DNA from: an uncultured Gammaproteobacteria bacterium
GTDB lineage: Bacteria > Patescibacteriota > Microgenomatia > Levybacterales > UBA12049
Assembly: GCA_964562445.1 (NCBI GenBank)
Contig: CAZLSZ010000003.1
Location: 693 to 64,692 of the forward strand
Reading direction: 5' to 3'
Length of the DNA stretch: 64,000 nt
Shown: piece by piece, positions 1,097-51,481 of the stretch
Position numbering within the stretch: the stretch's first letter is position 1
Layout: the number at the start of each line of letters is the position of its first letter
Made by a program: the position numbers and the translations under genes
Notes under the pieces: model-generated
What the model saw: only the letters and a program-made list of their open reading frames with translations
Database searches by the model: none
Told to the model about the DNA's origin: nothing

Positions 1097-2044
1097 ATGA
1101 ACGAAGAGTTTCAGGTATTGTTATATTACAAATATATCCACATTGATGATCCCGAAAAAGTCCGTGATGAACAGCGGGAAATATGTCAAAAGCTCGGATT
1201 AAAAGGACGTATTATTGTTGCAACGGAAGGAATTAACGGAACAGTAGAAGGGCCTGTCGCTAATACTGAAAAGTATATCAAAGCGATGGAGAAGACGGCT
1301 TATTTTAAAGGTATTCATTACAAAAAAAGTATAGGAACAGGTGAAGCGTTTCCCAAGTTATCTGTCAAAGTCCGACCTGAACTCGTGACAGCACATCTGC
1401 AGGATATTGATCCAAATAAATTGACCGGGAAATATCTTACGGCGGATGAATTATACCGCTGGTATGAGGATAAGAAAGAATTCTATCTGGTCGATATGCG
1501 CAACGATTATGAATATGAGTCCGGTTATTTTGAAAATTTTATTCCTTCAGGGATTCATAATTTTTATGATCTGCCAGATGTACTTCCCAAAATAAAACAT
1601 CTCAAAAATAAACCAGTTGTTACTGTCTGTACAGGGGGAATTCGCTGCGAGAAGGCATCAGGATTTCTCATGAAGCATGGTTTTAAAGACGTTTACCAAC
1701 TCTATGATGGTATCCAAACATTTATGGAAAAGTATCCAAATAAATATTTCAAGGGAAAGTTATATGTTTTTGATAAACGGATGACACTGGGATACAACAC
1801 TGATTCTCCCGAACATGAGGTGGTAGGGAAATGTATGCATTGCGGAAAGTCGAGTGACACATATGTAAATTGTGAATACAATTTTTGTCACTATCACTAT
1901 ATTTGCTGTAAGGATTGTCTTGACCCGGAGACAGGTTTCGCTTTTTGTAAAAAGGAGTGTAAAGAGAAATATCTTAAGCAAAAAAACGATACACAAAAAT
2001 CTTCTTCTTCTGTACAAATCTTAGGTATTACATTGCAAGCTTGA
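1097..2044 (+). CDS. trhO: Rhodanese-domain tRNA uridine(34) hydroxylase, TrhO/YceA (UPF0176) family
   Basis: N-terminal YYKYxxIxDP...ATEGINGT signature; rhodanese domain with catalytic Cys (CTGGIRCEKAS); C-terminal Cys-rich tail. TGA stop at 2042..2044. Confidence 0.8.
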   Translation: MNEEFQVLLYYKYIHIDDPEKVRDEQREICQKLGLKGRIIVATEGINGTVEGPVANTEKYIKAMEKTAYFKGIHYKKSIGTGEAFPKLSVKVRPELVTAHLQDIDPNKLTGKYLTADELYRWYEDKKEFYLVDMRNDYEYESGYFENFIPSGIHNFYDLPDVLPKIKHLKNKPVVTVCTGGIRCEKASGFLMKHGFKDVYQLYDGIQTFMEKYPNKYFKGKLYVFDKRMTLGYNTDSPEHEVVGKCMHCGKSSDTYVNCEYNFCHYHYICCKDCLDPETGFAFCKKECKEKYLKQKNDTQKSSSSVQILGITLQA

Positions 2045-8111: not shown

Positions 8112-10655
8112 ATGGAAGTGAGTGATAAAACGCTGGGATATTACGCGTCGAAGAATGCTGACGATGTTCTGAAGGAATTGGACGTAACAGAAAAGGGGCT
8201 CGGTGAGTCGGAAGCTTCCAAAAGGATTAAAAAGTATGGTTACAATGTTATTGCTCAGGAAAAGAAAAATCATTGGATAATTGAATATCTCCTCAATTTT
8301 AAAGATCCGCTTGTTCTTATTTTATTATTCGCCGCTATCATCTCGTATGTGCTGGGTGAAACAGTTAACGCGGCTATTATATTTATTATTATTTTATTCA
8401 GTACGACATTGAATTTTTTTCAGGAATTTAATGCCAGCAATGCCGCGAAAAAACTGCGTGAGAAAATAGCAACGGATACGACTGTCATCCGAGAAGGGAA
8501 ACAACAGGAAATTAAAATAAAGAATGTCAGTGTGGGAGATATTATTTTCTTGAACGCGGGAGATATTATTCCCGCAGATGCAAGAATTTTGGAAGCGAAA
8601 GACTTCTTTGTCAATCAGTCATCGCTCACAGGAGAATCATTCCCTGTTGAAAAAACATCATCTGTGCTCCACACAAAACATGAATCTGTGACCGATATTA
8701 CAAATAGTGTTTTTTCGGGAAGTAGTGTGATTACAGGTTCAGCGATAGCGGTAGTTGTACAGACAGGGGCAAATACAGAGTTCGGAAAAATCGCCGAAAA
8801 ACTTGCCGAGACTCCTGTACAAAGTGAATTTACGATTGGTGTCAAAAATTTCAGTTTGATGATTATGCGGATCACAATGTTCTTTGTCCTTTTCATCTTT
8901 CTTTTTACCATCTTTTTTAAGCATACACAGTTGTTGGAGGCATTTACTTTTTCTATCGCTGTTGCTGTAGGTCTGACGCCTGAGCTGCTTCCGATGATTA
9001 TGTCTATCACCATGGCCAAGGGCTCATTAACCATGGCGAAAAAAGGTGTCATTGTCAAAAAATTAGCTGCCATACCGGACTTTGGAGAAATGAATCTACT
9101 TTGTACTGATAAAACAGGGACCCTGACACAGGATAAAATTGAGCTTGTGAAATATATGGATGTAACTGGCGCACATTCTGAGAATGTACTGCTCTATTCC
9201 TACCTCAATAGTTATTATCAGACGGGGATTAAAAATCCGATGGACGAGGCGGTAATACGTTTTAAAAGAGAAGATATTCATCTCTATAAAAAGGTAGATG
9301 AGATCCCGTTTGATTTTGAGAGAAAAAGGATGAGTGTGATTGTGGATAGTCACCATAAACGATTTCTTATCACCAAGGGTGCGCCTGAAGAAATTCTTCC
9401 GATATGTGATCATTATCAGAAGAAAGATGAAGAAAAAAAGATCTCCGGATTTATCCATAAAGAAATGTTGGAATTATACCGCTCGCTCAGTAGAGACGGT
9501 TTTCGTGTATTAGGAGTTGCGATAAAGGAGATGTCTGAGAAGAAAAAAACGTATTCCAAACATGATGAATCTGGTATGCGGTTTATCGGTTTTATCGCGT
9601 TTCTTGATCCTGCAAAAGCGGACGTTAAAAGTGTCTTAGCAGATCTGGAATCTATGGGAATTGAGACAAAAATTATTACCGGTGACAATGAGTTGGTGAC
9701 ACAAAAAATATGTAGAGAAGTTGGATTGCCGATCAAAGGAGTTCTGTTGGGGAAAGACATTGAAAAAATGACCCTTGATTCACTTCGAGTGATTGCAGCA
9801 AAGACAACTATTTTTGCGAGGTGTTCACCTGTCGTAAAAAATAAAGTATTGCAGGCATTGAAATCGGGAGGATATGTGATCGGGTATATGGGAGATGGTA
9901 TTAATGATGCCCCCGCGCTCAAGACAGCGGATGTGGGTATTTCGGTCAATAATGCAGTTGATGTTGCCAAAGAATCTGCAGATATGATTTTGACGCACAA
10001 AAGTTTGGGACAGCTTCGGGACGGCGTTCTAGAAGGACGCAAGACATTCGGGAATACGATGAAATATATCATGATGGGTATTAGTTCGAGTTTTGGTAAT
10101 ATGTTTAGTGTCCTCGGAGCCGTACTTTTCCTGCCGTTTCTTCCCATGCTTCCGATTCAGATTTTACTCAATAATTTACTGTATGATCTGTCACAGATTT
10201 CTATCCCTACGGATAATGTGGATAAAGAGTATTTACAAAAACCCAAGAGATGGGATATGCAATTTATAAAAAATTTTATGTTTACATTCGGACCGATCAG
10301 TTCGTTTTTTGATTTCCTTACATTTTATGTTTTGTATTCTGTATATAAATTATCAGCAGGTGGATTTCAGACGGGATGGTTTATGGAGTCTATAGCGACA
10401 CAAACGCTCATCATCCTTATTATCAGGACGAGACACGTGGCATTTTTGCAGAGTAACGCGAGTAAATATTTATTCTTTTCGACGGTTGTCGTAGTCGCGA
10501 TAGGGTGGATTATTCCGTATACACGATTCGGTGCGTACTTGCAGTTTCAGCCGCTTCCATTACATATTGTATCGTCACTGGTGATGATCGTGATAGGGTA
10601 TATGATTACAATTGAAATAGGGAAAAGAATATTTTATCGATATCATCCTCAGTAG
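8112..10655 (+). CDS. mgtA: Magnesium-translocating P-type ATPase (MgtA-like, type IIIB)
   Basis: DKTGTLT phosphorylation site, TGES-like actuator motif (LTGES), GDGINDAPALKTADVGISV hinge, 10 TM helices. N-terminus is similar to MgtA proteins. Confidence 0.75.
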   Translation: MEVSDKTLGYYASKNADDVLKELDVTEKGLGESEASKRIKKYGYNVIAQEKKNHWIIEYLLNFKDPLVLILLFAAIISYVLGETVNAAIIFIIILFSTTLNFFQEFNASNAAKKLREKIATDTTVIREGKQQEIKIKNVSVGDIIFLNAGDIIPADARILEAKDFFVNQSSLTGESFPVEKTSSVLHTKHESVTDITNSVFSGSSVITGSAIAVVVQTGANTEFGKIAEKLAETPVQSEFTIGVKNFSLMIMRITMFFVLFIFLFTIFFKHTQLLEAFTFSIAVAVGLTPELLPMIMSITMAKGSLTMAKKGVIVKKLAAIPDFGEMNLLCTDKTGTLTQDKIELVKYMDVTGAHSENVLLYSYLNSYYQTGIKNPMDEAVIRFKREDIHLYKKVDEIPFDFERKRMSVIVDSHHKRFLITKGAPEEILPICDHYQKKDEEKKISGFIHKEMLELYRSLSRDGFRVLGVAIKEMSEKKKTYSKHDESGMRFIGFIAFLDPAKADVKSVLADLESMGIETKIITGDNELVTQKICREVGLPIKGVLLGKDIEKMTLDSLRVIAAKTTIFARCSPVVKNKVLQALKSGGYVIGYMGDGINDAPALKTADVGISVNNAVDVAKESADMILTHKSLGQLRDGVLEGRKTFGNTMKYIMMGISSSFGNMFSVLGAVLFLPFLPMLPIQILLNNLLYDLSQISIPTDNVDKEYLQKPKRWDMQFIKNFMFTFGPISSFFDFLTFYVLYSVYKLSAGGFQTGWFMESIATQTLIILIIRTRHVAFLQSNASKYLFFSTVVVVAIGWIIPYTRFGAYLQFQPLPLHIVSSLVMIVIGYMITIEIGKRIFYRYHPQ

Positions 10656-10660
10656 ATTGC

Positions 10661-11380
10661 TTAGATTCCTTCTACATTAAAGAGTCTTCCGATGCCGTAT
10701 GTAATCGCCATAGCAAGGACACCTCCGACGACTACCCTGAAAATTGCTCTACTGACACTTGCGCCACCGATCTTTGCACTGATTGTACCGGTAAGCGCGA
10801 GGGCGATAATGACGGAAATGACCGCGACTGTTATTCGCATCTCAATTGGTGGGAGGATGATTGCGATGATGGGGATGATCGCGCCTGCCAAGAAAGCTGC
10901 TGCTGAGGCAAAAGCTGCATGCCACGGACTTGTGAGATTGTGCGGATCAATACCCAGTTCCGCGTCAAAATGTGCTGCATAAGGATCTTTTGCGGTAAGT
11001 TCTTTTGCTGCCTGCATTGCTGTGCGTTTTGACATCCCTTTTTCTTCGTAAATCATTGCGAGCTCTTCCAATTCTTCTTCCGGGAAATTTTCGAGGTTAT
11101 ATCGTTCTTTTTTCAGTAGTGCGCGTTCAGTGTCACGAGAGCTGCTGACTGAGACATATTCTCCAGCCGCCATGGATATAGCTCCGGCTATGACTCCGGC
11201 GATCCCTGAGGTGAGGATGATGTATGTATCACTTGTCGCTCCGGCGACACCCATGACAAGGCCGGCTATAGAGACGATACCATCATTCGCACCGAGAACT
11301 GCTGCTCTGAGCCAGTTGAGTTTCGCACCAGTATTCAGTTTAAGAGGTGTTCCTTTTTTTTCGTCAGACTTTTTCTTCAT
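10661..11380 (-). CDS. VIT1/CCC1-family Fe/Mn transporter
   Basis: LRAAVLGANDGIVSIAGLVMGVAGA signature. Ferritin-like cytoplasmic domain followed by TM helices. Internal Met chosen as start. Confidence 0.7.
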   Translation of the reverse strand: MKKKSDEKKGTPLKLNTGAKLNWLRAAVLGANDGIVSIAGLVMGVAGATSDTYIILTSGIAGVIAGAISMAAGEYVSVSSSRDTERALLKKERYNLENFPEEELEELAMIYEEKGMSKRTAMQAAKELTAKDPYAAHFDAELGIDPHNLTSPWHAAFASAAAFLAGAIIPIIAIILPPIEMRITVAVISVIIALALTGTISAKIGGASVSRAIFRVVVGGVLAMAITYGIGRLFNVEGI

Positions 11381-11399
11381 TGATGAGATTATAACACAG

Positions 11400-12941
11400 C
11401 TATTGTTTTTTTGTACCGACTGCCTGGGCGATTGAGGAATATCCGTCACGTTTGAGATATTCGTTCAATTGTATATTCATTTCTGCCATAAGTCCCGGTC
11501 CCTGAAAGATCATTCCGGTAATTAATTGTACGAGATTTGCTCCTGATTGTATCTTTTCGTACGCATCTTCCGCGGAGAAGATACCACCCAACCCGATGAT
11601 AATGAATCGTTTTTTGTATTTTTTATAAGCGAGGCGGATAAGTTCATTGGATCTGTTATACGTCGGTTTTCCACTAAACCTACCATCCGGGAATTGTGAG
11701 ACTTCTTTTTGGACAAACGCTTTGTCTTTTTTATCGCTTTGCAGATTTCCGAAAATTACTCCTTTTGGAGAATGTTTCGCGATTACTTCTAGCATCGCAA
11801 GAGTTTGTTTGTCAGATTGATCGATGGGCATTTTGACAAAAATCGGTTTTTCGATTTTTAGCTTGTCGATTTCTTTGAGGAGTTTCGCCAATTCTTTAGG
11901 TTCATAAAATGAAATATTCCCATAAAGATTGGGGCAGCTGATATTGAGTTCATAGTAAGCTATTTTGAGATTTGCTTTTTCAAATTTTCTAAAACATTCT
12001 ATGATGTCTTCGATAGCACCTTTCTGTGTCATTTTCTCTCTCGAGTTTGTCCGCCCGATACTTATACCTACAGGTGTCGCAAATGAAAGATGTTTAAGTG
12101 ACCGTATAATTGCGTCAGCTCCCGGATTTTTAAATCCTTTATTTACCATGAGTGACTTGGATTTCGGTAATCTGCCGAGCATGGGACGGGGATTGCCTTC
12201 ATATGATCTGTTGGTGATAGTCCCGACTGATTGAAATCCGAAACCTGCTTGCGGCAGGATTTGTGTCAGTTGACCCTCATAATCAAATCCTGCCGCAAGC
12301 CCGACAGGATTATCAAATGAAATCCCTAGCAATTCCTGTTTGAGTATCGGATTTTTATACAGAAACATCCACCCCGCGATGGATTTCATAAATGGGAGAT
12401 TGCCCAGAAATGCACTGCCGTTGGTAATCGCCACATGTACCTGTTTGGGATCGAAAAGGAAGAATATTTTTTTTATGATATTGGTATACAGTATTCTAAA
12501 AATGATAACACCGAGATATTTTCTTTCCGTGTAAAAATAATTATGCGTGATAAAAAAGAGCGTAAAACTGATAATTGCGGATAACATACAGTATGTGCAG
12601 ATCGCGTGAATGACAAAAAGTTGCAGATACACAAAGTATACCGATGCCAGAAAACCAATCGTACCGGAAATAACAGCGAGATATGCAAATCTTTTTCTTT
12701 TTCCGATTGCGGCATACACCAATAAAATGAGGAAGCTTACATAATGAAAAACGCCGTATAACGCGACAGGTATTCCGAATATTTCAGAATAACTACTCGT
12801 AAGCACCTGACCGCAGTCGGAATAAGGGACATCATAACAAGGAGGCACACTTGCATTATAATGTTCTATCGTCAGATACCCAGCGTCTACCATACCTGAA
12901 AATGCGAGCAAAATAAGTATATATGGTATGTATTTTTTCAT
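11400..12941 (-). CDS. pyrD: Fusion protein: N-terminal VKOR (vitamin K epoxide reductase) membrane domain plus class-2 dihydroorotate dehydrogenase (quinone) catalytic domain
   Basis: VKOR loop Cys pair (PPCYDVPYSDCGQV) and TM CxxC (ICTYCM) in the first ~140 aa. Downstream comes the canonical DHODH-2 region (ITNGSAFLGNLPF...GISFDNPVGLAAGFDYEGQ...GFGFQSVGTITNRSYEGNPRPMLGRL...GFKNPGADA...IIGLGGI). Confidence 0.75.
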   Translation of the reverse strand: MKKYIPYILILLAFSGMVDAGYLTIEHYNASVPPCYDVPYSDCGQVLTSSYSEIFGIPVALYGVFHYVSFLILLVYAAIGKRKRFAYLAVISGTIGFLASVYFVYLQLFVIHAICTYCMLSAIISFTLFFITHNYFYTERKYLGVIIFRILYTNIIKKIFFLFDPKQVHVAITNGSAFLGNLPFMKSIAGWMFLYKNPILKQELLGISFDNPVGLAAGFDYEGQLTQILPQAGFGFQSVGTITNRSYEGNPRPMLGRLPKSKSLMVNKGFKNPGADAIIRSLKHLSFATPVGISIGRTNSREKMTQKGAIEDIIECFRKFEKANLKIAYYELNISCPNLYGNISFYEPKELAKLLKEIDKLKIEKPIFVKMPIDQSDKQTLAMLEVIAKHSPKGVIFGNLQSDKKDKAFVQKEVSQFPDGRFSGKPTYNRSNELIRLAYKKYKKRFIIIGLGGIFSAEDAYEKIQSGANLVQLITGMIFQGPGLMAEMNIQLNEYLKRDGYSSIAQAVGTKKQ

Positions 12942-16872: not shown

Positions 16873-17769
16873 TTAACGAACAGAGCGTTTCATATTTGCT
16901 AATGATGGAAGTGAGAAAAGCACATATGCTACAGACGGACTTGTAAAATCATTTGCAGCAGTCACCGCTATACTGGAATTATTTTTCCATTTATAGTTTC
17001 CTGATTCCTCAAATGTTTCATGAATATGTCCGTGCATAGTCAAAAGAGGATTATAGGTTTCTATAAAATTGCGTATCGCTTTACTACCGATATGTAAATC
17101 ATTTTCTTTAATATATGGGTTTTTTTGAGATGTCATATCCAAAGGAGTATTGTAAGGGGCATCATGAAATACATAAACGGTTTTTTGAGGATCATGCAAT
17201 TTTGCTAATGCATCAAGATCTGTTTTTATCGATGATCTTTTATCTTCATTATTTTCAAATTGAATAGGGTAGTGTCTTCCATTTTGCGACGTATATCCGT
17301 CTGTTCGATATATTTTGTTTGATTGATGCATATCATTGTTATCCCATTTCTCCCAATCTTTTTGAAGAAATGGCGTTAATGAGACGTATGGATATCCGGC
17401 TACATATAATTCTTCAGAAGTATTTGCCAATGGTACAATATCATTATTAAGAAAGGTTATTTTTTTATTATCTTTGGGTAGTAAATTGTAATTACTTTTG
17501 AAGTCATCATTGCCAAATATTGCATAGACATTGGTATGCATGCTGAGTTCATTAAGATAGTTATTGAAATACCCCTCAATAAATTTTCTCTGCATTTTAA
17601 TGGTTCTGATTTTATTTCCGGGATTCCATAGTCCGCCTTTTTTGGGAAGCAGATCACCGCATAAAAATACATGATCGACATCCTTTTCGATAATTGTTTG
17701 TTTGATCTTCTCGTACTGTGTTATATTGCCATGTACATCAGCAGTAGTGAGGCATAATAATTCTTTCAT
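16873..17769 (-). CDS. Calcineurin-like metallophosphoesterase (cassette copy 1, second gene)
   Basis: Metallophosphoesterase motifs DVHGN (DxH), GDLLPK (GD), GNDD (GNH[DE] variant), HDAP, HGHIHE (GHxH). About 60% identical to the 23479..24375 product. Confidence 0.75.
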   Translation of the reverse strand: MKELLCLTTADVHGNITQYEKIKQTIIEKDVDHVFLCGDLLPKKGGLWNPGNKIRTIKMQRKFIEGYFNNYLNELSMHTNVYAIFGNDDFKSNYNLLPKDNKKITFLNNDIVPLANTSEELYVAGYPYVSLTPFLQKDWEKWDNNDMHQSNKIYRTDGYTSQNGRHYPIQFENNEDKRSSIKTDLDALAKLHDPQKTVYVFHDAPYNTPLDMTSQKNPYIKENDLHIGSKAIRNFIETYNPLLTMHGHIHETFEESGNYKWKNNSSIAVTAANDFTSPSVAYVLFSLPSLANMKRSVR

Positions 17770-17822
17770 AGACAGTTGTTATTTTTATCATTGATTATGA
17801 AAAAATAACAATTGATAGAGTA

Positions 17823-18782
17823 TTAATATATTTTATGTAATTTTTCGGAGAGTGAGAGGACAAATGAATGGGAGTTATTTTCTTTACCTTTCCGATCCGC
17901 ACGCACTTGTTCACGTGCATAAACGGATTGACTAAAAAGAAGGATTGGGTCACTATCCGTATACTCTTCAATTTTTCTCAGACTTCTGACAAGTGGTTTA
18001 TCTACAAATACTTCCTTTCCAAATCTGTCATGAGGATCAATAGGCGCATCTTCCGTCATCTTATTTAATTCAAGACCAAATATCAATATTTCATCAGGAA
18101 GCGTAGGTGTATGTACGATTCGTTGTTTGGTATCAATAGATGCGATTGGCTTTATTATAAAATTACTTAGAGATTTTTCTCTTTGCTCATCAGAATCTCT
18201 GTGAGGAATTTTCACTATTCCAGTTTGCGGTGTAGTTGTTAAAATACCATCATTGTATTCGTTTTGTGCGCAGGTTACATGCATCATATAGAGTGTCCCC
18301 TTTGTATCTGCTCCACCCATCACATATGAAGTTTTTCCAGCTTGTTTTTTATTGTTGCCATCTCGATATTCTGTGGCCGTTGATTTGTCGGGATAAGTGG
18401 AGCGAAATTCGGGATTTTCCAGATGGATACTGATTTTTCTTCCATTACTTGCTCTTGTAGAGAAAGACACATAATCAATTTCGGATTGTTTTTCTTCATC
18501 AAGACCTATTACGTGTTTTTGGAGAATTTCGGTGGGTGTTTGCGGGATAGAGCCAATAACCGCAAAATCAATATCAGAGGTCTCACTAAGCTTACCTGCT
18601 GTCATACCGCTTCCGTGCATAAATACAACACATCCATTGTCCCGTAGTGTGTCCAGTACGCGTAAATCTTTTTTATCCAGACCGTCTGCTAATAATATTC
18701 CGGAAGGTGTATTTTCCCTTTGCGGAACAGGCATACGTCTTGATTCTTTAAAATATGATAATTGTTCTGATAAAAGTGCCAT
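17823..18782 (-). CDS. Pol-beta-superfamily minimal nucleotidyltransferase-domain protein with a ~240-aa unique C-terminal extension (cassette copy 1, first gene)
   Basis: FMHGSGMTAGKLSETSDIDFAVIG matches the hG[GS]x9-13DhD minimal NTase signature (compare MNT/KNTase LFGSxARGxxxxxSDIDLLV). The remainder is not recognised. Paralog of 24372..25343. Confidence 0.5.
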   Translation of the reverse strand: MALLSEQLSYFKESRRMPVPQRENTPSGILLADGLDKKDLRVLDTLRDNGCVVFMHGSGMTAGKLSETSDIDFAVIGSIPQTPTEILQKHVIGLDEEKQSEIDYVSFSTRASNGRKISIHLENPEFRSTYPDKSTATEYRDGNNKKQAGKTSYVMGGADTKGTLYMMHVTCAQNEYNDGILTTTPQTGIVKIPHRDSDEQREKSLSNFIIKPIASIDTKQRIVHTPTLPDEILIFGLELNKMTEDAPIDPHDRFGKEVFVDKPLVRSLRKIEEYTDSDPILLFSQSVYAREQVRADRKGKENNSHSFVLSLSEKLHKIY

Positions 18783-20032: not shown

Positions 20033-22090
20033 TTGATCATGAAACTTGAAAAACCCAAACTGCTTAATATCCAACAATCAGCGTCTTTTTTGGGGGTAAG
20101 TTCAAGTACTGTACGAAGATGGGCATACGCGAACCAATTAACAGGAGTAAAAATAGGGACGAGAGGAGATTGGCGATTTACTGAAGAAGAACTCACCAAA
20201 ATGATGCATCCACAAAAAGATACATTTTCATTAGTACAAAAACTGCTTACAGAATATGCAAGTCAGCTTCAAAAGAGTTCTTCTCAGATGCGTAATCAGT
20301 TGATTGGATCGGATGAAAACTCCGAGAATGCAAAAAAACGTAGGCCTGATTATAGAGAGGTAGTGACATTATTAGCAGATAATTTGGAAGATGTTGATAA
20401 AGGGAAATTGTTATTCACTGCATTAGGAGAAAAATTAGCAAAAAAAGCGCATCATGATGGTTTATCTTTGGAAGAGGCTGTAGATGGGATCATTTTCTTA
20501 AAGCAAGCGATTTGGGATAAATTTAATCAGAAAGGAGTACTCGATAAGTTTACGACACATGAGTTTTATAACGTAAATAGGATTATCAGCACGTATACAG
20601 ATATTCTTGCCGCAAAAATTGCTTTTTCCTACCATGATAGGTATAAAAAAATTGAAAAAGACCTTTTTCAATTGGCAGCAATTGTAGATTCATCAGATGA
20701 CGCGATTATCAGTAAGACACTCGATGGTGAGATAATCAGCTGGAATAAAGGGGCAGAGAATTTATACGGTTATACAGCAGAGGAGGTAATAGGTAAATCC
20801 ATTACTATTATTATTCCGAAGGAATTACAAAAAGAAGAGAAAAAAATCATAAACAAAATTAAAAGGGGACAACCCATTGAGCATTTTGAAACAGAACGTC
20901 TGAGAAAAGACGGAAGCAAGGCAATTATTTCGCTGAGTGTTTCTCCTATAAAAAATCATCACGGTAAAATTATCGGTGCATCCAAAATTGCGCGTGATAT
21001 CGCCAAACAAAAACAAGCTGAAGAATCATTACGGTATCATGCAAAGCTTATCGAAATTGTTTCTGACGCAATTATTTCAACGGATTTGGATACAAAGATT
21101 CAGACATGGAATAAAGCAGCTGAGACGATGTATGGATATCCGGACAAAGAGGTTCTAGGTAAAAAAACGATAGATATTATAGCTACAGAATATAATAATA
21201 TCAGCCGAGAAAACGTATTACATACATTAAATACTAAAGGTGTTTGGAAGGGGGAAGTAAAGCAAATCACCAAATATGGTGAAATACGGTATGTCTTGAA
21301 TTCATCATCATTGGTCAAAGATAGTGCGGGTAAGAGCATAGGGTACGTCGCCGTTAATCGGGACATTAGTGAACGCAAGAAATTGGAACAGAGAAAAGAT
21401 GACTTTGTGGCACTCGCATCACATGAATTAAAAACGCCTGTTACATCACTGAAAATATATGCTCAAGTTTTGCTCAATCGATTTGAAAAATCAGGAGACA
21501 GGCACATGATAAAATATCTTGCCAACATGAATAATCAACTCACCAAGCTAACTGATCTCGTTACAAGTTTGTTGGATGTTTCCCGAGTGCAGCAAGGGAA
21601 ATTACAATATAGGAAAGAGAAATTTACCATAGATGATTTGGTGCAGGAAACTATCGAAAACATTCAACGTATTACCACAACTCATGAAATTTTATCAGAC
21701 GGAAAAATAGGAAAGAATGTCATTGCGGATCGGGAACGTATCGGGCAGGTACTTACCAATCTGATTACCAACGCAATTAAATATTCAGCTCAGTCGAATA
21801 AAGTTATAGTTACCTCATCAAAAGATACAAAAAACGTAACGATATGTGTGCAGGATTTTGGGAAGGGAGTGCCTCGTGACCAGCAGAAAAAAATATTTGA
21901 GCGTTTTTATCAGGCCAGTGATCCTGAAATTAAAACATATCCTGGGCTGGGGCTGGGACTCTATATCTCCAAAGAAATTATCGAGCGTCATGGTGGCACG
22001 ATATCTCTAATAAGTGATCAAAAACAAAAAGGATCGACTTTTTGTTTTACTCTGCCTCTCCGCGGTAGAACACGAAAAACAAACACGTAA
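20033..22090 (+). CDS. Sensor histidine kinase with N-terminal HTH (excisionase/MerR-like HTH_17) DNA-binding domain, two PAS domains, HisKA and HATPase_c
   Basis: LNIQQSASFLGVSSSTVRRWAYANQL (HTH). Two PAS blocks (DAIISKTLDGEIISWNKGAENLYGYTAEEVIG and DAIISTDLDTKIQTWNKAAETMYGYPDKEVLG). H-box ALASHELKTP. N, G1 and G2 boxes (LTNLITNAIKYS, QDFGKGV, GLGLGL). No response regulator nearby. Confidence 0.8.
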   Translation: MIMKLEKPKLLNIQQSASFLGVSSSTVRRWAYANQLTGVKIGTRGDWRFTEEELTKMMHPQKDTFSLVQKLLTEYASQLQKSSSQMRNQLIGSDENSENAKKRRPDYREVVTLLADNLEDVDKGKLLFTALGEKLAKKAHHDGLSLEEAVDGIIFLKQAIWDKFNQKGVLDKFTTHEFYNVNRIISTYTDILAAKIAFSYHDRYKKIEKDLFQLAAIVDSSDDAIISKTLDGEIISWNKGAENLYGYTAEEVIGKSITIIIPKELQKEEKKIINKIKRGQPIEHFETERLRKDGSKAIISLSVSPIKNHHGKIIGASKIARDIAKQKQAEESLRYHAKLIEIVSDAIISTDLDTKIQTWNKAAETMYGYPDKEVLGKKTIDIIATEYNNISRENVLHTLNTKGVWKGEVKQITKYGEIRYVLNSSSLVKDSAGKSIGYVAVNRDISERKKLEQRKDDFVALASHELKTPVTSLKIYAQVLLNRFEKSGDRHMIKYLANMNNQLTKLTDLVTSLLDVSRVQQGKLQYRKEKFTIDDLVQETIENIQRITTTHEILSDGKIGKNVIADRERIGQVLTNLITNAIKYSAQSNKVIVTSSKDTKNVTICVQDFGKGVPRDQQKKIFERFYQASDPEIKTYPGLGLGLYISKEIIERHGGTISLISDQKQKGSTFCFTLPLRGRTRKTNT

Positions 22091-23478: not shown

Positions 23479-24375
23479 TTATTCCACAAACCGCTCAATG
23501 TTTTTGAGAGAAGGGATTGAGAAGAGTACGTATGCTAATTTATCTGATTGGAAGTTATTTCCTGCAGCAAGAGAAATTGATTTGTTATTTTTCCATATAT
23601 ACTTACCCGAAATATCGCATGTCTCGTGGATATGCCCATGCATAGTAAGCATAGGATTGTGGTCTTCAATAAATTTTCGAATAGCTCTGCTGCCTATATG
23701 AATCTCTCCGTTTTTTATATTGGGATTTTCTTTAAATGTCATATCCAGAGGAGTATTGTAGGGCGCATCATGGAAAAGATATAACGTTTTGACAGGATCA
23801 CTTCGTTGTATGAGTTGGTTAAGATCCTCCGTTATCGTTCCGTAGATATTATTGTTTATATCGAATGTAATGGGAAGATGTTTTCCTTCATGCGAAGTAT
23901 ATCCATCAACTCTACAACCTTTATTATCCGGTATCGAAAAATTATCTTCTAGTTTTTCCCAATCTTTTTGCAAAAATGGAGTAAGAGAAACATACGGATA
24001 ACCTGCAACAGATAAACTGTCATTGTCTCCTAGCGGAACAACAGCTGTCTTAAGAAATGTAATTTTCGGATGATTGAGAGTTTGGAATAAATGATAATTG
24101 CTTTTGAAATCATCATTTCCGGATATAGCATAAATATATGTATATTTGCTCAGGTCATGAAGATAGGGGATAAAAAATTCAGTAATAAATTTTTTCTGCA
24201 TCTCAATTGTTCTTATTTTGTTCTCTGGACTCCATAATCCTCCTGTTTTGGGAAGGTTGTCTCCGCAAAGAAAAACATAGGAAATTTTTTTAGCGATAAC
24301 TATTTGTTTGAGTTTATTATATTGGATGATATTTCCATGGACATCAGAAGTAAGAAGACACAGTGAATTTTTCAT
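23479..24375 (-). CDS. Calcineurin-like metallophosphoesterase (cassette copy 2, second gene)
   Basis: Same motif set as 16873..17769 (DVHGN, GDNLPK, GNDD, HDAP, HGHIHE); 298 aa in both copies. Confidence 0.75.
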   Translation of the reverse strand: MKNSLCLLTSDVHGNIIQYNKLKQIVIAKKISYVFLCGDNLPKTGGLWSPENKIRTIEMQKKFITEFFIPYLHDLSKYTYIYAISGNDDFKSNYHLFQTLNHPKITFLKTAVVPLGDNDSLSVAGYPYVSLTPFLQKDWEKLEDNFSIPDNKGCRVDGYTSHEGKHLPITFDINNNIYGTITEDLNQLIQRSDPVKTLYLFHDAPYNTPLDMTFKENPNIKNGEIHIGSRAIRKFIEDHNPMLTMHGHIHETCDISGKYIWKNNKSISLAAGNNFQSDKLAYVLFSIPSLKNIERFVE

Positions 24376-25343
24376 ACTATATTATTATATAGATGTTTAA
24401 GTCTATTTCCTACTTTTTCAACAAAAAAATGTGAAGAATTATTTTTTTGTTTTCTTCGCATACGCAATTCTTCACGAGCATATACTGCCGAAGAGTAGAT
24501 AGTGATAGGATCGTTGTGGATATACTTTTCTATAGCTCCCAAAGTCCTGATAATAGGATTTTCAATAAATACTTTTTTTTGAAAAGCTATCATATCCGTT
24601 TTTAACGGCGTATCTTCCGTCATCTTATTTAATTCTATACCGAAAAGTATTACTTCCTCAGGTAGATCAGCAGTATAATCAATGGTATCACCGTCAGGTT
24701 GTATCGATGCAATTGGTGTAACAGGAAATTGTATTTCAGAGTGGGTAATGGGTGCAGCTGTAGTATCAGACATTTTATAAATTCCTACTTGGGGTGTGTA
24801 TGTCAAAACGCCGTTTGCGCTATGCTTCTGAGGGCATGTCATTTCTACTATATGAATAGTATTGGATTTATCGACACCACTCATTATATATGACGTATTT
24901 TCTGTTGATTTTTTATGTTTATTACTTCGGTATTCTAATCCAAAAGGTTTTTCTGGATATGTCCCTCTATAGTGAGGGTTTTGTAGGTGATAGCTAAGTT
25001 TTGTCCCATTTTCTGCATTTGTGAAAAAGGATATATAATCGATTTCATTTTTTTCATCAATAATCCCTATATGGTTCTTTATTATCTCGTGAGGTATGTG
25101 TTTACGATTGCCGATGATTGTAAAATCAATATCAGATGCCTCATCTAATCGTTCGGATCGTATGCCGCTCCCATGCATAAATATCGCAAATCCTTTTTTT
25201 TCGAATTCTTTGAGGATAGTTGTATCAGCGTCTGAAATCCCATATTTTTTTATCAACGATCGTGGTGATAACGACTGTGCTGACGTTTCAGGGGCAACGT
25301 GTTGAACTGGATACTCTTGTGTTGACATAGGGTATAGAAACAC
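24372..25343 (-). CDS. Pol-beta-type minimal nucleotidyltransferase-domain protein (cassette copy 2, first gene)
   Basis: FMHGSGIRSERLDEASDIDFTIIG NTase signature. About 50% identical to the 17823..18782 product along its whole length. 4-nt overlap (ATGA) with the downstream phosphoesterase gene. Confidence 0.5.
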   Translation of the reverse strand: MFLYPMSTQEYPVQHVAPETSAQSLSPRSLIKKYGISDADTTILKEFEKKGFAIFMHGSGIRSERLDEASDIDFTIIGNRKHIPHEIIKNHIGIIDEKNEIDYISFFTNAENGTKLSYHLQNPHYRGTYPEKPFGLEYRSNKHKKSTENTSYIMSGVDKSNTIHIVEMTCPQKHSANGVLTYTPQVGIYKMSDTTAAPITHSEIQFPVTPIASIQPDGDTIDYTADLPEEVILFGIELNKMTEDTPLKTDMIAFQKKVFIENPIIRTLGAIEKYIHNDPITIYSSAVYAREELRMRRKQKNNSSHFFVEKVGNRLKHLYNNIV

Positions 25344-49241: not shown

Positions 49242-51038
49242 ATGAAAAAGATGAAAACTGCATGGGATTTAAGCCCCTTATTTAGCGGAGATGATGATCC
49301 TGCAATTTCGAAACAACGGGAAAGTATCGAGAAAGAAAATAAAAAATTTGTCAAAAAATGGTCCGCGAATGATTCATATCTCACTGATGCATCGGTACTC
49401 AAAAAAGCACTGGATGAGTATGAATTATTGATACGAAAATACGGCACTGACGGAAATGAAGGATATTATTTCTGGCTTCGCTCGCAGCAGGATCAGAATG
49501 ATCAACAGATAAAAGCAAAATTCGCTAAAGTGCTGGATTTCAGTAATAAACTGCGAAATGAGTTGCAATTTTTTGAACTTAAATTGGCAAAAATCTCCAA
49601 AGCAAAACAAAAAGAATTCTTGAAGGACAAAGCACTCAACTCATACAAACATTATCTGGAGAAAATATTCAGACAGGGAGAGTATGTCCTCAGTGATGAA
49701 GTCGAAAAAGTACTCAATCTCAAATGGGATGTCGCCCATGAAAAATGGGAGCAGATGCTTTCGGGTTTTATCTCCAAAGAAGAGCGCGAAATAGTAGGGG
49801 AGAGCGGCAAAAAAGAAAAGCTCACCTTTGAACAGCTGATCAGTCTGACGCAAAGTACCAAGAAAAAAGTCAGAGACGCAGCTGCAGGGGCAGTAAATGA
49901 TATTTTTGTGAAATTACTTGATGTAGCGGAAGCAGAAATCAATGCAATTCTCGCGAATAAGAAAATTGATGATGAGCTCCGCAAGATGCCTCGTCCTGAT
50001 TTTTCAAGGCACCTAGCGGATGATGTACAGAGTGATGTGGTGGATGCTCTCGTCAAAACAGTATCGGAAAGATATGATATTTCGAAAAAATATTATCAGC
50101 TCAAGGCGAAGATACTCGGTGTAAAACAACTCAAGTATCATGAGCGGAATGTTTCATTGGGGACAAAAGAGACAGTTTTTTCTTTTGATGATGGGGCGAA
50201 ATTGGTGCACAAAGTATTTCATGAGCTGGATCCGTATTTCGCGCAAACACTTGATAGATTTTTGGAAAACGGACAGATTGATGTCTATCCCCAAAAAGGG
50301 AAGCGAGGAGGAGCGTTTTGCGTCTATTGGCAGGTAGAAAAGCCGACATTTGTGATGCTCAACTATACCGATAAACTCAGAGATGTGGAGACACTTGCCC
50401 ATGAAATGGGACACGCGATCAATGATGAATTGATGAAGAAACAAAATGCGCTTAATTTCGGTACACCGACCTCAACTGCAGAAGTCGCAAGTACATTTAT
50501 GGAGGATTTTGTTTTGCAGGAAATTCTCAAGTCAGCTGATGAGGAAACACGATTCAGCCTGATGATGTCCAAACTCGATACGGAAATTGCGACGATTTTC
50601 AGACAGATCGCGTGTTATCAGTTTGAGTGGGATTTGCATGCAGCTTTTCGTGAGAAAGGATATCTATCAGCAAAAGAAATCGGCGCAATTTTTCAAAAAA
50701 ATATGAGCGCGTATATGGGACCGGGTGTTGAACAATCAAAAGGTTCTGAGAATTGGTGGCTTTACTGGTCACACATCCGTACATTTTTTTATGTGTATTC
50801 TTACGCGAGCGGACTGCTTATTTCAAAATCGATGCAAAATGGGGTTAAACAAAATCCCGAATTTATCGAGAAAGTAAAAGAGTTCTTATCATCAGGCTTG
50901 TCAGCATCACCCAAAGACATTTTTATGAAAATGGATATCGATATCACTGATACTGCTTTTTGGAATAAAGGGCTGAATGAAGTCGAAAATCTCCTTAAAG
51001 AATCCACAAAATTAGCTAAAAAATTGGGTAAGATTTAA
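49242..51038 (+). CDS. pepF: Oligoendopeptidase F (M3B family)
   Basis: HEMGHA zinc-binding motif (HExxH) with downstream Glu. Length about 600 aa is typical of PepF. Confidence 0.85.
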   Translation: MKKMKTAWDLSPLFSGDDDPAISKQRESIEKENKKFVKKWSANDSYLTDASVLKKALDEYELLIRKYGTDGNEGYYFWLRSQQDQNDQQIKAKFAKVLDFSNKLRNELQFFELKLAKISKAKQKEFLKDKALNSYKHYLEKIFRQGEYVLSDEVEKVLNLKWDVAHEKWEQMLSGFISKEEREIVGESGKKEKLTFEQLISLTQSTKKKVRDAAAGAVNDIFVKLLDVAEAEINAILANKKIDDELRKMPRPDFSRHLADDVQSDVVDALVKTVSERYDISKKYYQLKAKILGVKQLKYHERNVSLGTKETVFSFDDGAKLVHKVFHELDPYFAQTLDRFLENGQIDVYPQKGKRGGAFCVYWQVEKPTFVMLNYTDKLRDVETLAHEMGHAINDELMKKQNALNFGTPTSTAEVASTFMEDFVLQEILKSADEETRFSLMMSKLDTEIATIFRQIACYQFEWDLHAAFREKGYLSAKEIGAIFQKNMSAYMGPGVEQSKGSENWWLYWSHIRTFFYVYSYASGLLISKSMQNGVKQNPEFIEKVKEFLSSGLSASPKDIFMKMDIDITDTAFWNKGLNEVENLLKESTKLAKKLGKI

Positions 51039-51481
51039 CGTTTCGCCTTAATTATCATTAGAAACTCTTTCACGGTAATAATTTGTAATTTTTCAAGTTT
51101 TGGATGTTTATCGAGAATGAGTAAATCCTCATCACCTGTAATAATATAATCAGCTTTACCACTTAACGCAGTGGTTATTATCATTTCATCCTTTATATCA
51201 CGAACTTTTATAGGTAATGCTTCCGTTATTTTAATGAATTCAGCTTGTTTGATAAGCAATGTCTGCATGACGGGGAAGAAAGTATCTTTTTTGAGATATT
51301 TTTGTATCTTTTTTCTTTGTAGAACATCGTTTATTTCTAATAACAAAAGATTACTTAAAAGAAGTGTGTAGGAGTCTCTCCTCCATAGTTCAATAATTTG
51401 GTATGGTTTGCTTGTAGGAAAGAGGAGGCCGCTGATAATGACGTTAGTGTCAACGACGACTCGAAGCTTTTGTCTTTTCAT
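51035..51481 (-). CDS. vapC: PIN-domain toxin (VapC-like)
   Basis: VVVDTNVIISG (first acidic residue in DTNV) and ITGDEDLL. 148 aa. Confidence 0.65.
   Translation of the reverse strand: MKRQKLRVVVDTNVIISGLLFPTSKPYQIIELWRRDSYTLLLSNLLLLEINDVLQRKKIQKYLKKDTFFPVMQTLLIKQAEFIKITEALPIKVRDIKDEMIITTALSGKADYIITGDEDLLILDKHPKLEKLQIITVKEFLMIIKAKR

What the first reader, a model, noticed from the sequence alone, without database searches (positions are those of the whole stretch)
11400..12941. VKOR-domain fused to class-2 dihydroorotate dehydrogenase
The first ~140 aa carry the VKOR hallmarks: a loop Cys pair (PPCYDVPYSDCGQV) and a transmembrane CxxC (ICTYCM), with multi-helix topology. The rest is a complete quinone-type DHODH catalytic barrel. 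Class-2 DHODH normally uses a short N-terminal amphipathic helix pair as its quinone and membrane site. Here that role appears to be replaced by a quinone-reducing thiol-oxidoreductase module. This could couple pyrimidine biosynthesis to disulfide or thiol redox, or supply a quinone site in an organism that may lack a respiratory chain.
Basis: partly seen in the sequence, partly recalled or inferred. Interest (0 to 1): 0.6.

Follow-up and report, generated by a model that had tools for sequence, protein, structure and literature searches.

The report
VKOR fused to anaerobe-type DHODH
This gene from a tiny, non-respiring CPR (Microgenomates-type) bacterium joins a complete membrane disulfide-forming enzyme (VKOR) to a complete pyrimidine-synthesis enzyme (DHODH); the fusion is real and conserved in dozens of species but undescribed in the papers I could search, and it is puzzling because both halves normally pass electrons to a membrane quinone that these bacteria are reported not to make or re-oxidise.

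Summary
Window 11400-12941 (-) is one uninterrupted 513-aa ORF. It has a full-length VKOR domain (aa 8-132, 97 bits) and a class-2-type DHODH (aa ~150-513). All four VKOR cysteines are invariant in 121/121 homologs.

The fusion is not an artefact. It occurs in more than 120 protein clusters and in 51 of the 80 best species-level genomes (Roizman-, Woese-, Gottesman-, Levybacteria). The other 29 carry an unfused ortholog with the same active site.

The class-2 N-terminal quinone/membrane helices are retained (aa 137-193, His169), not replaced. VKOR is added upstream of them.

Charge bias puts the VKOR cysteines outside the cell and the DHODH in the cytoplasm. The AF2 model is confident (pLDDT 91.7, pTM 0.89).

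The DHODH is atypical. It has Cys336 where class 2 has the catalytic Ser, a feature linked in fungi to respiration-independent class-II DHODHs. It also has Tyr221 for the conserved Lys.

My best reading (about 0.5): two working enzymes on one polypeptide, with VKOR as a permanent anchor and both drawing on the same scarce quinone. A direct DHO-to-disulfide relay is not excluded (about 0.17).

I found no paper describing the fusion. Databases call it plain DHODH.

The parts
11400..12941 (-). Whole VKOR-DHODH fusion ORF, 513 aa plus stop codon
   Evidence: Single ORF. Both Pfam domains are above their cut-offs. Coordinates verified.
12537..12941 (-). VKOR domain, aa 1-135, with four transmembrane helices (5-28, 59-79, 83-111, 116-135) and a short loop helix at 43-47
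   Evidence: PF07884 at 97.3 bits. Aligns to Synechococcus VKOR 4nv2/3kp9. AF2 secondary structure. Hydropathy and K+R bias.
12813..12839 (-). Loop cysteine pair Cys35...Cys43 (CYDVPYSDC), predicted to face outside the cell; the invariant Ser49 follows just after
   Evidence: Invariant in 121/121 sequences. Aligns with the positions of the Synechococcus VKOR loop cysteines.
12588..12599 (-). Active-site CxxC (Cys115-Thr-Tyr-Cys118) at the outer end of TM4
   Evidence: Invariant in 121/121 sequences. Aligns with the Synechococcus CMYC motif.
12345..12533 (-). Basic linker (ERK 139-141) plus the retained class-2 N-terminal helical domain (helices 137-160, 165-180, 183-193), including Tyr152, Phe161 and His169 of the DPxxxH motif
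   Evidence: NCBIfam PyrD models match from profile position 2. Alignment to H. pylori DHODH from its residue 10. AF2 helices. Helix 137-160 carries 5.1 K+R on average, so it is not a fifth TM. Tyr152, Phe161 and His169 are about 100% conserved in both fused and unfused forms.
11403..12344 (-). DHODH alpha/beta barrel, aa 200-513
   Evidence: PF01180 at 183 bits. Foldseek TM 0.87-0.94 relative to target against class-2 DHODH structures.
11928..11945 (-). Catalytic-base motif N-I-S-C336-P-N, with Cys in place of the class-2 Ser
   Evidence: Aligned with NLSSPN (H. pylori) and NVSSPN (rat). Cys is invariant in 121/121 sequences and in all 80 genome loci.
12279..12281 (-). Tyr221 in AAGFDY, at the position of the conserved class-2 Lys (AAGFDK)
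   Evidence: Ungapped alignment to the H. pylori and rat enzymes. Invariant in the family. More distant Cys-type relatives keep GFDK.
12180..12182 (-). Met254 at the position of the basic quinone-site residue (rat PRPR-VFRL vs PRPM-LGRL here)
   Evidence: Alignment. The position varies in the family: Arg in 52-59% of species representatives.

Best explanation
The gene encodes one membrane protein that carries two complete enzymes.

The first ~135 residues form a four-helix VKOR. Its loop cysteines (Cys35, Cys43) and CxxC (Cys115, Cys118) face the outside of the cell. There they would take electrons from a secreted DsbA/MdbA-type thiol oxidoreductase and pass them to a membrane quinone.

TM4 ends in the cytoplasm and runs, through a short basic linker, straight into the surface helices that form the quinone tunnel of class-2 DHODHs. 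The FMN barrel that oxidises dihydroorotate to orotate follows.

I think both halves run in their usual direction and each reduces quinone. On this view the fusion does two things. It gives the DHODH a permanent transmembrane anchor. It also holds two quinone-using sites next to each other, so both can draw on the same scarce, probably scavenged, quinone.

The DHODH half belongs to a large Cys-base branch of class-2-like enzymes, a feature linked to respiration-independent activity in fungal class-II DHODHs.

Shown: the fusion itself, the intact catalytic residues, retention of the class-2 helices, and the distribution across species. Inferred from charge bias: the topology. Inferred only: quinone sharing, the direction of electron flow, and how the quinol is re-oxidised.
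For: - Both domains are full length and above curated cut-offs. VKOR Cys35, Cys43, Cys115, Cys118 and Ser49 are invariant in 121/121 sequences, so VKOR chemistry is under selection.
- FMN and orotate residues Lys370, Asn333, Asn338, Asn399 and the SGKP motif are invariant.
- Topology: the inside-facing segments carry 6.4 K+R over 17 residues, against 2.1 over 35 residues for the outer loops. Helix 137-160 is too basic to be a TM. A variant with two extra TMs (P0129) keeps an even TM count.
- The class-2 N-terminal helices and His169 are retained.
- The AF2 model has pLDDT 91.7 and pTM 0.89, which suggests a defined arrangement of the two domains.
- Anchor role: unfused orthologs favour Lys at positions 183, 191 and 195 of helix alpha2-3, where fused ones favour Pro, Trp and Tyr. 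The same DHODH clade also carries other N-terminal membrane additions: PAP2, a single TM, and a 5-TM region.
- The fused VKOR is the ordinary local kind: a standalone VKOR near an unfused DHODH (L055) is 40% identical to the fused domains, which are 48% identical to one another.
- VKOR is common in CPR and often lies next to MdbA-like proteins (PMC6744442).
- A Cys base marks respiration-independent class-II DHODHs (PMC8520639).
Against: - No quinone-biosynthesis, quinol-oxidase or respiratory genes are in the 64-kb window. CPR genomes are reported to lack them. Two quinone reducers with no way to re-oxidise quinol is therefore an incomplete scheme.
- No DsbA/MdbA/Trx partner and no other pyr gene lies in the window or recurs near the gene in 83 loci.
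- The DHODH active site departs from the class-2 norm (Cys336, Tyr221, Lys271, Ile474; Met254 in this protein), so neither dihydroorotate nor quinone use is proven.
- Twenty-nine species do without the fusion, so any benefit is dispensable.
- I could not obtain model coordinates or PAE, so the closeness of the two quinone sites is not measured.
Confidence: 0.5

Rival explanations
1. Closed redox relay. Electrons from dihydroorotate go to FMN, then to a quinone held between the two domains, then backwards through the VKOR CxxC and loop cysteines to disulfides outside the cell. The enzyme would be a dihydroorotate:protein-disulfide (or small-disulfide) oxidoreductase. This would give pyrimidine synthesis an electron sink in a cell with no respiratory chain.
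For: - The host lineage is reported to lack a respiratory chain and quinone synthesis, so DHODH needs some non-respiratory acceptor.
- DHOD-bound FMN is very reducing, -242 to -330 mV (quoted in PMC8520639). That is below typical protein disulfides (my own knowledge: DsbA about -120 mV), so the overall reaction runs downhill.
- Both catalytic centres are strictly conserved and the model predicts a rigid two-domain arrangement.
- The Cys-base DHODH type is associated with non-quinone, respiration-independent acceptors.
- The fusion persists across about 50% sequence divergence in 51 species and as two paralogs in one genome.
Against: - To my knowledge no VKOR or DsbB is known to run from quinol to disulfide, and with menaquinone (about -74 mV) as intermediate the second step is uphill.
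- Unfused orthologs with identical key residues exist in 29 species and interleave with fused ones on an unsupported NJ tree, so DHODH turns over without VKOR in cis.
- Non-redox membrane domains such as PAP2 are fused at the same place in related DHODHs.
- By topology, the FMN and the CxxC lie on opposite sides of the membrane.
- CPR cells are thought to need VKOR for disulfide formation, not reduction.
Confidence: 0.17
2. Neutral or anchor-only fusion. Two neighbouring genes were joined by loss of a stop codon. VKOR and DHODH work wholly independently, and the only gain, if any, is membrane tethering of the DHODH.
For: - VKOR's cytoplasmic C-terminus and DHODH's membrane-surface N-terminus are geometrically compatible.
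- Fused and unfused forms interleave.
- Other membrane anchors are fused to relatives.
- Unfused forms have a more basic helix alpha2-3, as expected if they must bind the membrane unaided.
- There is no conserved operon partner.
Against: - A purely neutral fusion would not be expected to persist in more than 50 species-level lineages, in more than 120 protein clusters, and in a much more divergent fusion (P0157, 42% identity in the DHODH part).
- The high pTM suggests a fixed interface rather than a loose tether.
- This rival overlaps with the best explanation. It differs only in denying any shared use of quinone.
Confidence: 0.2
3. The DHODH-like half is not a dihydroorotate dehydrogenase in these organisms. 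It serves as a flavin module that takes electrons from the VKOR-reduced quinone and passes them to a cytoplasmic acceptor (for example fumarate, free flavin or O2). That would make the protein a self-contained disulfide-generating machine.
For: - Three substrate-site positions differ from canonical class 2: Lys to Tyr221, Asn to Lys271, and Ser to Cys336.
- One database record calls a member 'dihydroorotate dehydrogenase 2, nonfunctional'.
- No other pyr genes lie near the gene.
- CPR are often described as lacking de novo nucleotide synthesis.
Against: - Thiol to quinone to a low-potential DHOD flavin is thermodynamically uphill (potentials quoted).
- The remaining orotate and FMN residues are invariant.
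- NCBIfam PyrD equivalog models pass their cut-offs.
- The same atypical active site occurs in 29 unfused proteins that have no VKOR to serve.
- The Cys base is normal in working class-1 DHODHs and in anaerobic class-II DHODHs.
Confidence: 0.08
4. Artefact: a frameshift or mis-assembly joined two genes, or the N-terminus is a generic membrane anchor with chance cysteines.
For: None found.
Against: The reading frame is uninterrupted. Both domains lie in one ORF in 51 independent species genomes and in 120 of the 120 best database hits. The VKOR HMM match is full length at 97 bits and the cysteines are invariant.
Confidence: 0.01

Closest known systems
Bacterial VKOR (Synechococcus VKOR-Trx, PDB 3KP9/4NV2; Actinomyces oris and M. 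tuberculosis VKOR)
   Same: It has the same four-helix core, a loop cysteine pair, the conserved loop Ser and a CxxC at the start of TM4. It aligns end to end with the Synechococcus enzyme and passes the Pfam cut-off. The predicted topology has the cysteines outside.
   Different: The known fusions add a fifth TM and an extracytoplasmic thioredoxin/DsbA-like partner (PMC13486548). This one has no fifth TM and no Trx domain, and it carries a cytoplasmic flavoenzyme instead. The loop cysteines are spaced C-x7-C here, versus C-x5-C in Synechococcus.
Class-2 (quinone-dependent) DHODH: E. coli PyrD 1F76, H. pylori 6B8S, M. tuberculosis 8OFW, human DHODH
   Same: It has the N-terminal helical domain with the DPxxxH motif plus the FMN alpha/beta barrel. 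Foldseek TM relative to target is 0.87-0.94 at 26-31% identity. TIGR01036 and NF003652 are above their cut-offs.
   Different: The catalytic Ser is Cys336, the conserved GFDK Lys is Tyr221, the GFN Asn is Lys271 and the tunnel Tyr (QxYT) is Ile474. The basic tunnel residue is Met254 in this protein. A 4-TM enzyme precedes the domain, where bacteria normally have nothing and mitochondrial enzymes have a single TM.
Anaerobically active Cys-type class-II DHODHs of fungi (SjUra9, DbUra9, ArUra9; Bouwknegt et al. 2021, PMC8520639)
   Same: It has a class-II scaffold with Cys at the catalytic-base position. In ArUra9 the basic quinone-binding residue is also replaced by a hydrophobic one, as in this protein. 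The organisms live without respiration.
   Different: The fungal enzymes are eukaryotic and either mitochondrial or N-terminally truncated and cytosolic. They are not fused to another enzyme. The CPR enzymes keep the N-terminal helices and His169.
Unfused Microgenomates DHODH orthologs (for example in L051, L057, L067, L074)
   Same: They are 54-59% identical over aa ~150-513 and share the N[IV]SCPN motif, Tyr221, Lys271, His169 and Ile474.
   Different: They are about 375 aa and start 10-20 residues before helix alpha1, with no VKOR. Their helix alpha2-3 is richer in Lys.

Membership tests
VKOR family (Pfam PF07884) | Profile HMM match above the curated gathering score over the whole domain | tested here: met
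   97.3 bits against a 27.5 cut-off, covering profile positions 2-133 of 134. E = 1e-7 to Synechococcus VKOR structures.
VKOR family (Pfam PF07884) | Four-transmembrane-helix core | tested here: met
   AF2 helices at 5-28, 59-79, 83-111 and 116-135 with pLDDT mostly above 85. Mean hydropathy 1.1-2.1.
VKOR family (Pfam PF07884) | Loop cysteine pair, a conserved loop Ser/Thr, and a CxxC at the start of TM4 | tested here: met
   Cys35, Cys43, Ser49, Cys115 and Cys118 are invariant in 121/121 sequences and align with the Synechococcus residues.
VKOR family (Pfam PF07884) | Reduces a membrane quinone using electrons from a thioredoxin-fold partner | not testable with these tools
No Trx/DsbA/MdbA gene was found in the window or as a recurrent neighbour.
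VKOR-thioredoxin fusions (Synechococcus type, plant LTO1) | A fifth TM followed by an extracytoplasmic Trx/DsbA-like domain | tested here: not met
   After TM4 comes a basic surface helix (5.1 K+R on average) and a DHODH. There is no Trx Pfam hit.
Class-2 quinone-dependent DHODH (TIGR01036 / NF003652) | Equivalog HMM above the curated cut-off | tested here: met
   NF003652 scores 287.6 against 267 and TIGR01036 scores 234.5 against 200. Eight other PRK05286 sub-models fall below their cut-offs.
Class-2 quinone-dependent DHODH (TIGR01036 / NF003652) | N-terminal helical extension that forms the quinone tunnel and membrane site | tested here: met
   Matches from profile position 2. Helices at 137-160, 165-180 and 183-193. 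TM relative to target of 0.94 against full-length M. tuberculosis DHODH. His169 is invariant.
Class-2 quinone-dependent DHODH (TIGR01036 / NF003652) | Serine as catalytic base (N-x-S-S-P-N) | tested here: not met
   The motif is N-I-S-C336-P-N. Cys is invariant in 121/121 sequences and in all 80 loci. The rule is stated in PMC8520639.
Class-2 quinone-dependent DHODH (TIGR01036 / NF003652) | Conserved FMN and orotate residues (human Lys100, Asn145, Asn212, Asn217, Lys255, Asn284; human numbering from my own knowledge) | tested here: inconclusive
   Asn333, Asn338, Lys370 and Asn399 are invariant. The Lys100 position is Tyr221 and the Asn145 position is Lys271, both invariant in the close family.
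Class-2 quinone-dependent DHODH (TIGR01036 / NF003652) | Uses membrane quinone as electron acceptor | not testable with these tools
   Of the tunnel residues, His is kept. The basic residue is Met254 here (Arg in 52-59% of species representatives) and the Tyr is Ile474.
Class-1 DHODH (TIGR01037 and relatives) | Cysteine as catalytic base | tested here: met
   Cys336 in NISCPN.
Class-1 DHODH (TIGR01037 and relatives) | Overall sequence membership, and a soluble enzyme with no N-terminal extension | tested here: not met
   TIGR01037 scores 89.6 bits against a 270 cut-off, and the N-terminal helical domain is present.
Cys-type, respiration-independent class-II DHODH (as in PMC8520639) | Class-II scaffold with Cys at the base position | tested here: met
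   Most of the 150 best 50%-identity representatives (down to about 32% identity) read NxSCPN; about a dozen, all at 39% identity or below, read NxSSPN.
Cys-type, respiration-independent class-II DHODH (as in PMC8520639) | Activity independent of respiration and of quinone | not testable with these tools
   This needs enzymology or complementation.

The most novel reading that the evidence does not exclude
The fusion is a self-contained dihydroorotate:disulfide oxidoreductase. A captive quinone relays electrons from the cytoplasmic DHODH flavin across the membrane to the VKOR cysteines, so extracellular disulfides serve as the terminal electron acceptor for pyrimidine synthesis in a bacterium with no respiratory chain. 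This would be the first VKOR shown to run in reverse and a new kind of transmembrane electron outlet.
Probability: 0.15. Interest if true: 0.85.

Novelty: new variant of a known kind. Interest (0 to 1): 0.5.

Why it matters
CPR/Patescibacteria make up a large share of bacterial diversity. They are reported to lack respiratory chains and quinone synthesis, yet they widely encode VKOR, and here a quinone-type DHODH as well. What accepts the electrons from these enzymes is an open question.

A conserved natural fusion of the two is a strong hint that they share an acceptor or a membrane site. It also gives a single, clonable protein on which the question can be tested. Established assays exist for both halves: dsbB complementation for VKOR and pyrD/ura1 complementation for DHODH.

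The work also shows that the textbook rule 'class 2 = Ser base' fails for a large prokaryotic clade. This parallels the anaerobic fungal enzymes.

If the relay idea were true, it would link nucleotide synthesis to extracellular thiol redox, which would be a new bioenergetic arrangement. If it is false, the finding is still a useful correction to annotation, because these proteins are labelled only as DHODH, and one record even calls its member 'nonfunctional'.

Tried and rejected
- my coordinates were out of frame. Redone.
- the afdb50 fold library was unavailable, so I could not look for deposited AlphaFold or UniProt models of the fusion.
- the exact protein is not in the contig index (the closest is P0001 at 90%), so the source sample and organism could not be named.
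- literature searches for the fusion found only ferroptosis reviews, CPR surveys that mention VKOR alone, and a giant-virus VKOR paper. The DHOQO search returned unrelated papers, and the Sousa et al. survey of class-2 sequences is not in the library.
- a neighbour-joining tree of the DHODH domain interleaves fused and unfused forms. It has long terminal branches and no support values, so I do not use it to count fusion or fission events.
- neighbour clustering over 81 loci found no conserved thiol-redox, quinone or pyrimidine neighbour. The recurrent NUDIX, aminotransferase and membrane-protein neighbours are confined to one sub-clade.
- the cluster look-up of divergent fusions gave no organism names.
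- the search with the standalone VKOR was limited by the word index to 4 hits, so it says nothing about how common standalone VKORs are.
- model coordinates are not exposed, so the distance between the two quinone sites and the PAE could not be measured.
- I considered a 'compensatory Lys relocation' (Lys100 to Tyr together with Asn145 to Lys). More distant relatives have both GFDK and GxKN, so it is not a simple swap and I leave it open.
- I considered helix 137-160 as a fifth TM, which would put the DHODH outside the cell. I rejected this because the helix carries about 5 K+R and has a mean hydropathy of 0.46.
Full report
**The observation.** The window holds one uninterrupted 513-aa ORF on the minus strand. 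The ATG is at 12941 and the stop at 11400-11402. The frame is open for only nine codons upstream of the ATG, and homologs start at the same MKK.

**Domain content.**
- Pfam finds a full-length VKOR domain at aa 8-132: 97.3 bits against a cut-off of 27.5, covering profile positions 2-133 of 134.
- Pfam also finds a DHO_dh domain at aa 200-496 with 183 bits.
- NCBIfam places the C-terminal 360 residues with quinone-dependent PyrD. NF003652 scores 287.6 against 267 and TIGR01036 scores 234.5 against 200. The class-1 model TIGR01037 reaches only 89.6 against 270.
- The VKOR part aligns end to end with the solved Synechococcus VKOR. Both loop cysteines, the VLxS serine and the CxxC are in register.

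**Not an artefact, not a one-off.**
- All 120 best hits in the 5.8-billion-protein collection are 509-549 aa and 52-90% identical, and all carry both Pfam domains. The named ones come from Candidatus Levy-, Woese- and Roizmanbacteria and the 'Microgenomates group'.
- Sources call them 'quinone-dependent dihydroorotate dehydrogenase'. One record says 'dihydroorotate dehydrogenase 2, nonfunctional'. Example accessions are OGM05244.1, KKQ42461.1 / UniRef100_A0A0G0NJX8, MBI4080573.1 and MBI4973566.1.
- Among species-representative genomes, 127 encode a relative. Of the best 80, 51 have VKOR and DHODH in one ORF. One Roizmanbacteria assembly carries two fused paralogs (L040 and L042).
- In an alignment of 121 sequences, Cys35, Cys43, Cys115, Cys118 and Ser49 are invariant. 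The VKOR half is therefore under selection for its chemistry and is not a degenerate anchor.

The class-2 N-terminal helical domain is retained, not replaced.
- PyrD profiles match from position 2, at aa 151.
- The H. pylori enzyme aligns from its residue 10, with FFLFDPKQVH169 opposite its own DAEDAH.
- AF2 predicts helices at 137-160, 165-180 and 183-193 ahead of the barrel.
- Foldseek superposes the model on full-length class-2 DHODHs (M. tuberculosis, H. pylori, human, E. coli) with TM-scores of 0.87-0.94 relative to the target.
- Tyr152, Phe161 and His169 are about 100% conserved.

So VKOR is added upstream of an otherwise complete class-2 architecture.

**Topology.** The N-terminus, the TM2-TM3 loop and the segment after TM4 together carry 6.4 K+R in 17 residues. 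The two outer loops carry 2.1 K+R in 35 residues. By the positive-inside rule the cysteine loop and the CxxC face outward and the DHODH is cytoplasmic, where its substrate and FMN are. Helix 137-160 has about 5 K+R and low hydropathy, so it is a surface helix and not a fifth TM. A variant with two additional TMs between the domains (P0129) keeps the TM count even. The AF2 model is confident throughout (pLDDT 91.7) with pTM 0.89. That suggests a defined arrangement of the two domains, but coordinates and PAE were not available to me.

**An atypical DHODH half.**
- Where class-2 enzymes read N-x-S-S-P-N, this protein reads N-I-S-C336-P-N. The Cys is invariant in 121/121 homologs and in all 80 genome loci.
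- The class-2 Lys of AAGFDK is Tyr221. The Asn of GFN is Lys271. The tunnel Tyr of Q-x-Y-T is Ile474. All three are invariant in the close family.
- The basic tunnel residue is Met254 in this protein. That position varies, with Arg in 52-59% of species representatives.
- An exhaustive search of 1.84 billion cluster representatives with the DHODH part alone shows that the Cys motif is not peculiar to the fusion. Most of the 150 best representatives, mostly unfused proteins of 350-380 aa and down to about 32% identity, read NxSCPN. Ser-type sequences (NxSSPN, GFNN, QxYTG) appear only at about 34-39% identity. GFDY is confined to the nearest relatives.
- The Ser (class II) versus Cys (class I) rule is stated by Bouwknegt et al. 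2021 (PMC8520639). They also report its exception: three fungal class-II enzymes with Cys at this position support anaerobic, respiration-independent pyrimidine synthesis. One of them (ArUra9) lacks quinone activity, uses free flavins, and has a hydrophobic residue in place of the basic quinone-binding residue.
- The CPR enzyme therefore looks like a prokaryotic counterpart of that 'anaerobic class II' type.

**Fused versus unfused.** Twenty-nine of the 80 genomes have a ~375-aa ortholog that begins 10-20 residues before helix alpha1.
- It is as similar to the query (54-59% identity) as the fused ones are, and it shares every key residue.
- On an unsupported NJ tree the two forms interleave.
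- The only region that differs systematically is helix alpha2-3 (aa 165-199). Unfused proteins favour Lys at positions 183, 191 and 195, and fused ones favour Pro, Trp and Tyr. This fits unfused enzymes needing their own electrostatic hold on the membrane, while fused ones rely on, or pack against, VKOR.
- One unfused locus (L055) has a standalone VKOR 4.5 kb away. It is 40% identical to the fused VKOR domains, and these are 48% identical to one another. The fused VKOR is therefore the ordinary VKOR of these bacteria.
- Relatives of the DHODH also carry other N-terminal membrane additions: a PAP2 phosphatase domain, a single TM, and a five-TM region. One carries a C-terminal cytidylyltransferase-like domain.

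**Context.**
- The 64-kb window is ordinary CPR housekeeping: ribosomal protein S6, SSB, DnaB, HisRS, a release factor, Ddl, a Mur ligase, EF-P, proteases and two P-type ATPases. It has no second VKOR, no Trx/DsbA/MdbA, no pyr genes and no quinone or respiratory genes.
- Across 81 loci no thiol-redox or pyrimidine gene is a conserved neighbour.
- A Crp/Fnr-family regulator lies within 150 bp in seven distinct loci, three fused and four unfused.
- A VIT1 transporter follows the gene after 19 nt here, and it also follows the gene in the 63%-identical relative in L083.
- CPR genomes are reported to lack quinone biosynthesis and complete electron-transport chains (PMC5113843, PMC8407418, PMC7507113).
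- VKOR is common in CPR and often lies next to MdbA-like oxidoreductases (PMC6744442).

**Mechanism.** In every characterised system both VKOR and class-2 DHODH reduce quinone (VKOR: PMC13486548; DHODH: PMC8520639). The simplest reading is therefore one polypeptide carrying two working, parallel quinone reducers. VKOR would supply a permanent anchor, and both sites would share a scarce, probably scavenged, quinone. I give this about 0.5.
- Its weak point is that nothing known in these genomes would re-oxidise the quinol.
- The more novel alternative is a relay: DHO to FMN to quinone to the VKOR cysteines to external disulfides. Overall it runs thermodynamically downhill, and it would solve the acceptor problem. 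It requires VKOR to run in reverse, and it is weakened by the unfused orthologs and by the PAP2-type fusions. I give it about 0.15-0.17.
- A purely neutral or anchor-only fusion gets about 0.2.
- A non-DHODH flavin-sink role gets about 0.08.
- An artefact is excluded.

**Novelty.** The sequences are public and their precomputed Pfam architecture shows both domains. I found no paper that describes or discusses a VKOR-DHODH fusion. The recent VKOR literature lists only DsbA/Trx-type fusions. I rate it a new variant of known kinds, of moderate interest. It is a conserved 'Rosetta-stone' link between extracytoplasmic disulfide formation and pyrimidine synthesis, in organisms where the electron acceptor of both is unknown, and it can be tested with existing complementation assays.

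Noticed in passing
window 11928-11945 (-); also 12279-12281 and 12129-12131: The DHODH active site departs from the class-2 norm: Cys336 replaces the catalytic Ser, Tyr221 replaces the GFDK Lys, and Lys271 replaces the GFN Asn. The Cys motif defines a large, mostly unfused clade of class-2-like DHODHs in public data, so the textbook 'class 2 = Ser' rule has a big prokaryotic exception.
   Followed up: partly
L004, L051, L054, L069, L080, L081/L082, L083 (immediately next to the DHODH gene): A Crp/Fnr-family regulator (cNMP_binding + HTH_Crp_2) lies within 150 bp of the fused or unfused DHODH gene in seven distinct loci, in varying orientation. It is absent from this window. It may indicate redox- or signal-dependent regulation.
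   Followed up: partly
window 10661-11380 (-): A VIT1-family (Fe/Mn) transporter gene starts 19 nt after the fusion's stop codon, if the ATG at 11380 is used rather than the listed GTG at 11449. The same gene order is seen in the 63%-identical relative in L083, so the two genes may be co-transcribed.
   Followed up: partly
P0140, P0129, P0133, P0253, P0183, P0206 (relatives found): Relatives of the same DHODH carry other additions: an N-terminal PAP2 phosphatase domain (P0140), VKOR plus two extra TMs (P0129), a five-TM region of unknown family (P0253), single TM anchors (P0183, P0206) and a C-terminal cytidylyltransferase-like domain (P0133).
   Followed up: partly
L040 and L042 (contigs CABIKN020000038.1 and CABIKN020000069.1): One Candidatus Roizmanbacteria assembly (CandRoiz1) carries two different fused VKOR-DHODH paralogs.
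   Followed up: no
window 8112-10655 (+) and 53420-55963 (-): The window holds two cation-transporting P-type ATPases, each exactly 847 aa. One lies two genes from the fusion and is missing from the otherwise syntenic L083.
   Followed up: no
window 16873-18782 (-) and 23479-25343 (-): There are two similar gene pairs about 6 kb apart. Each pair has a 298-aa calcineurin-like metallophosphoesterase next to a ~320-aa protein with no Pfam match. This is probably a local duplication.
   Followed up: no
window 20033-22090 (+): A histidine kinase with two PAS domains also has an N-terminal HTH_17 DNA-binding domain, which is an unusual combination.
   Followed up: no
window 51035-51767 (-): A PIN-domain toxin and a Phd/YefM antitoxin form a pair, and a small MazG-like gene sits next to them (51830-52177).
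   Followed up: no
L026 and L027; many loci: L026 and L027 gave identical results in every measure (same length, match coordinates and HMM scores) but are filed under different phyla (WWE3 and Roizmanbacteria). Many TPA MAG records that hold this CPR gene are titled 'uncultured Gammaproteobacteria bacterium'. The record titles are unreliable for taxonomy.
   Followed up: no
window 1097-2044 (+): A rhodanese-domain protein of the UPF0176 type is the only other sulfur- or thiol-related gene seen in the window. It is 9 kb from the fusion, with no evident link to it.
   Followed up: no
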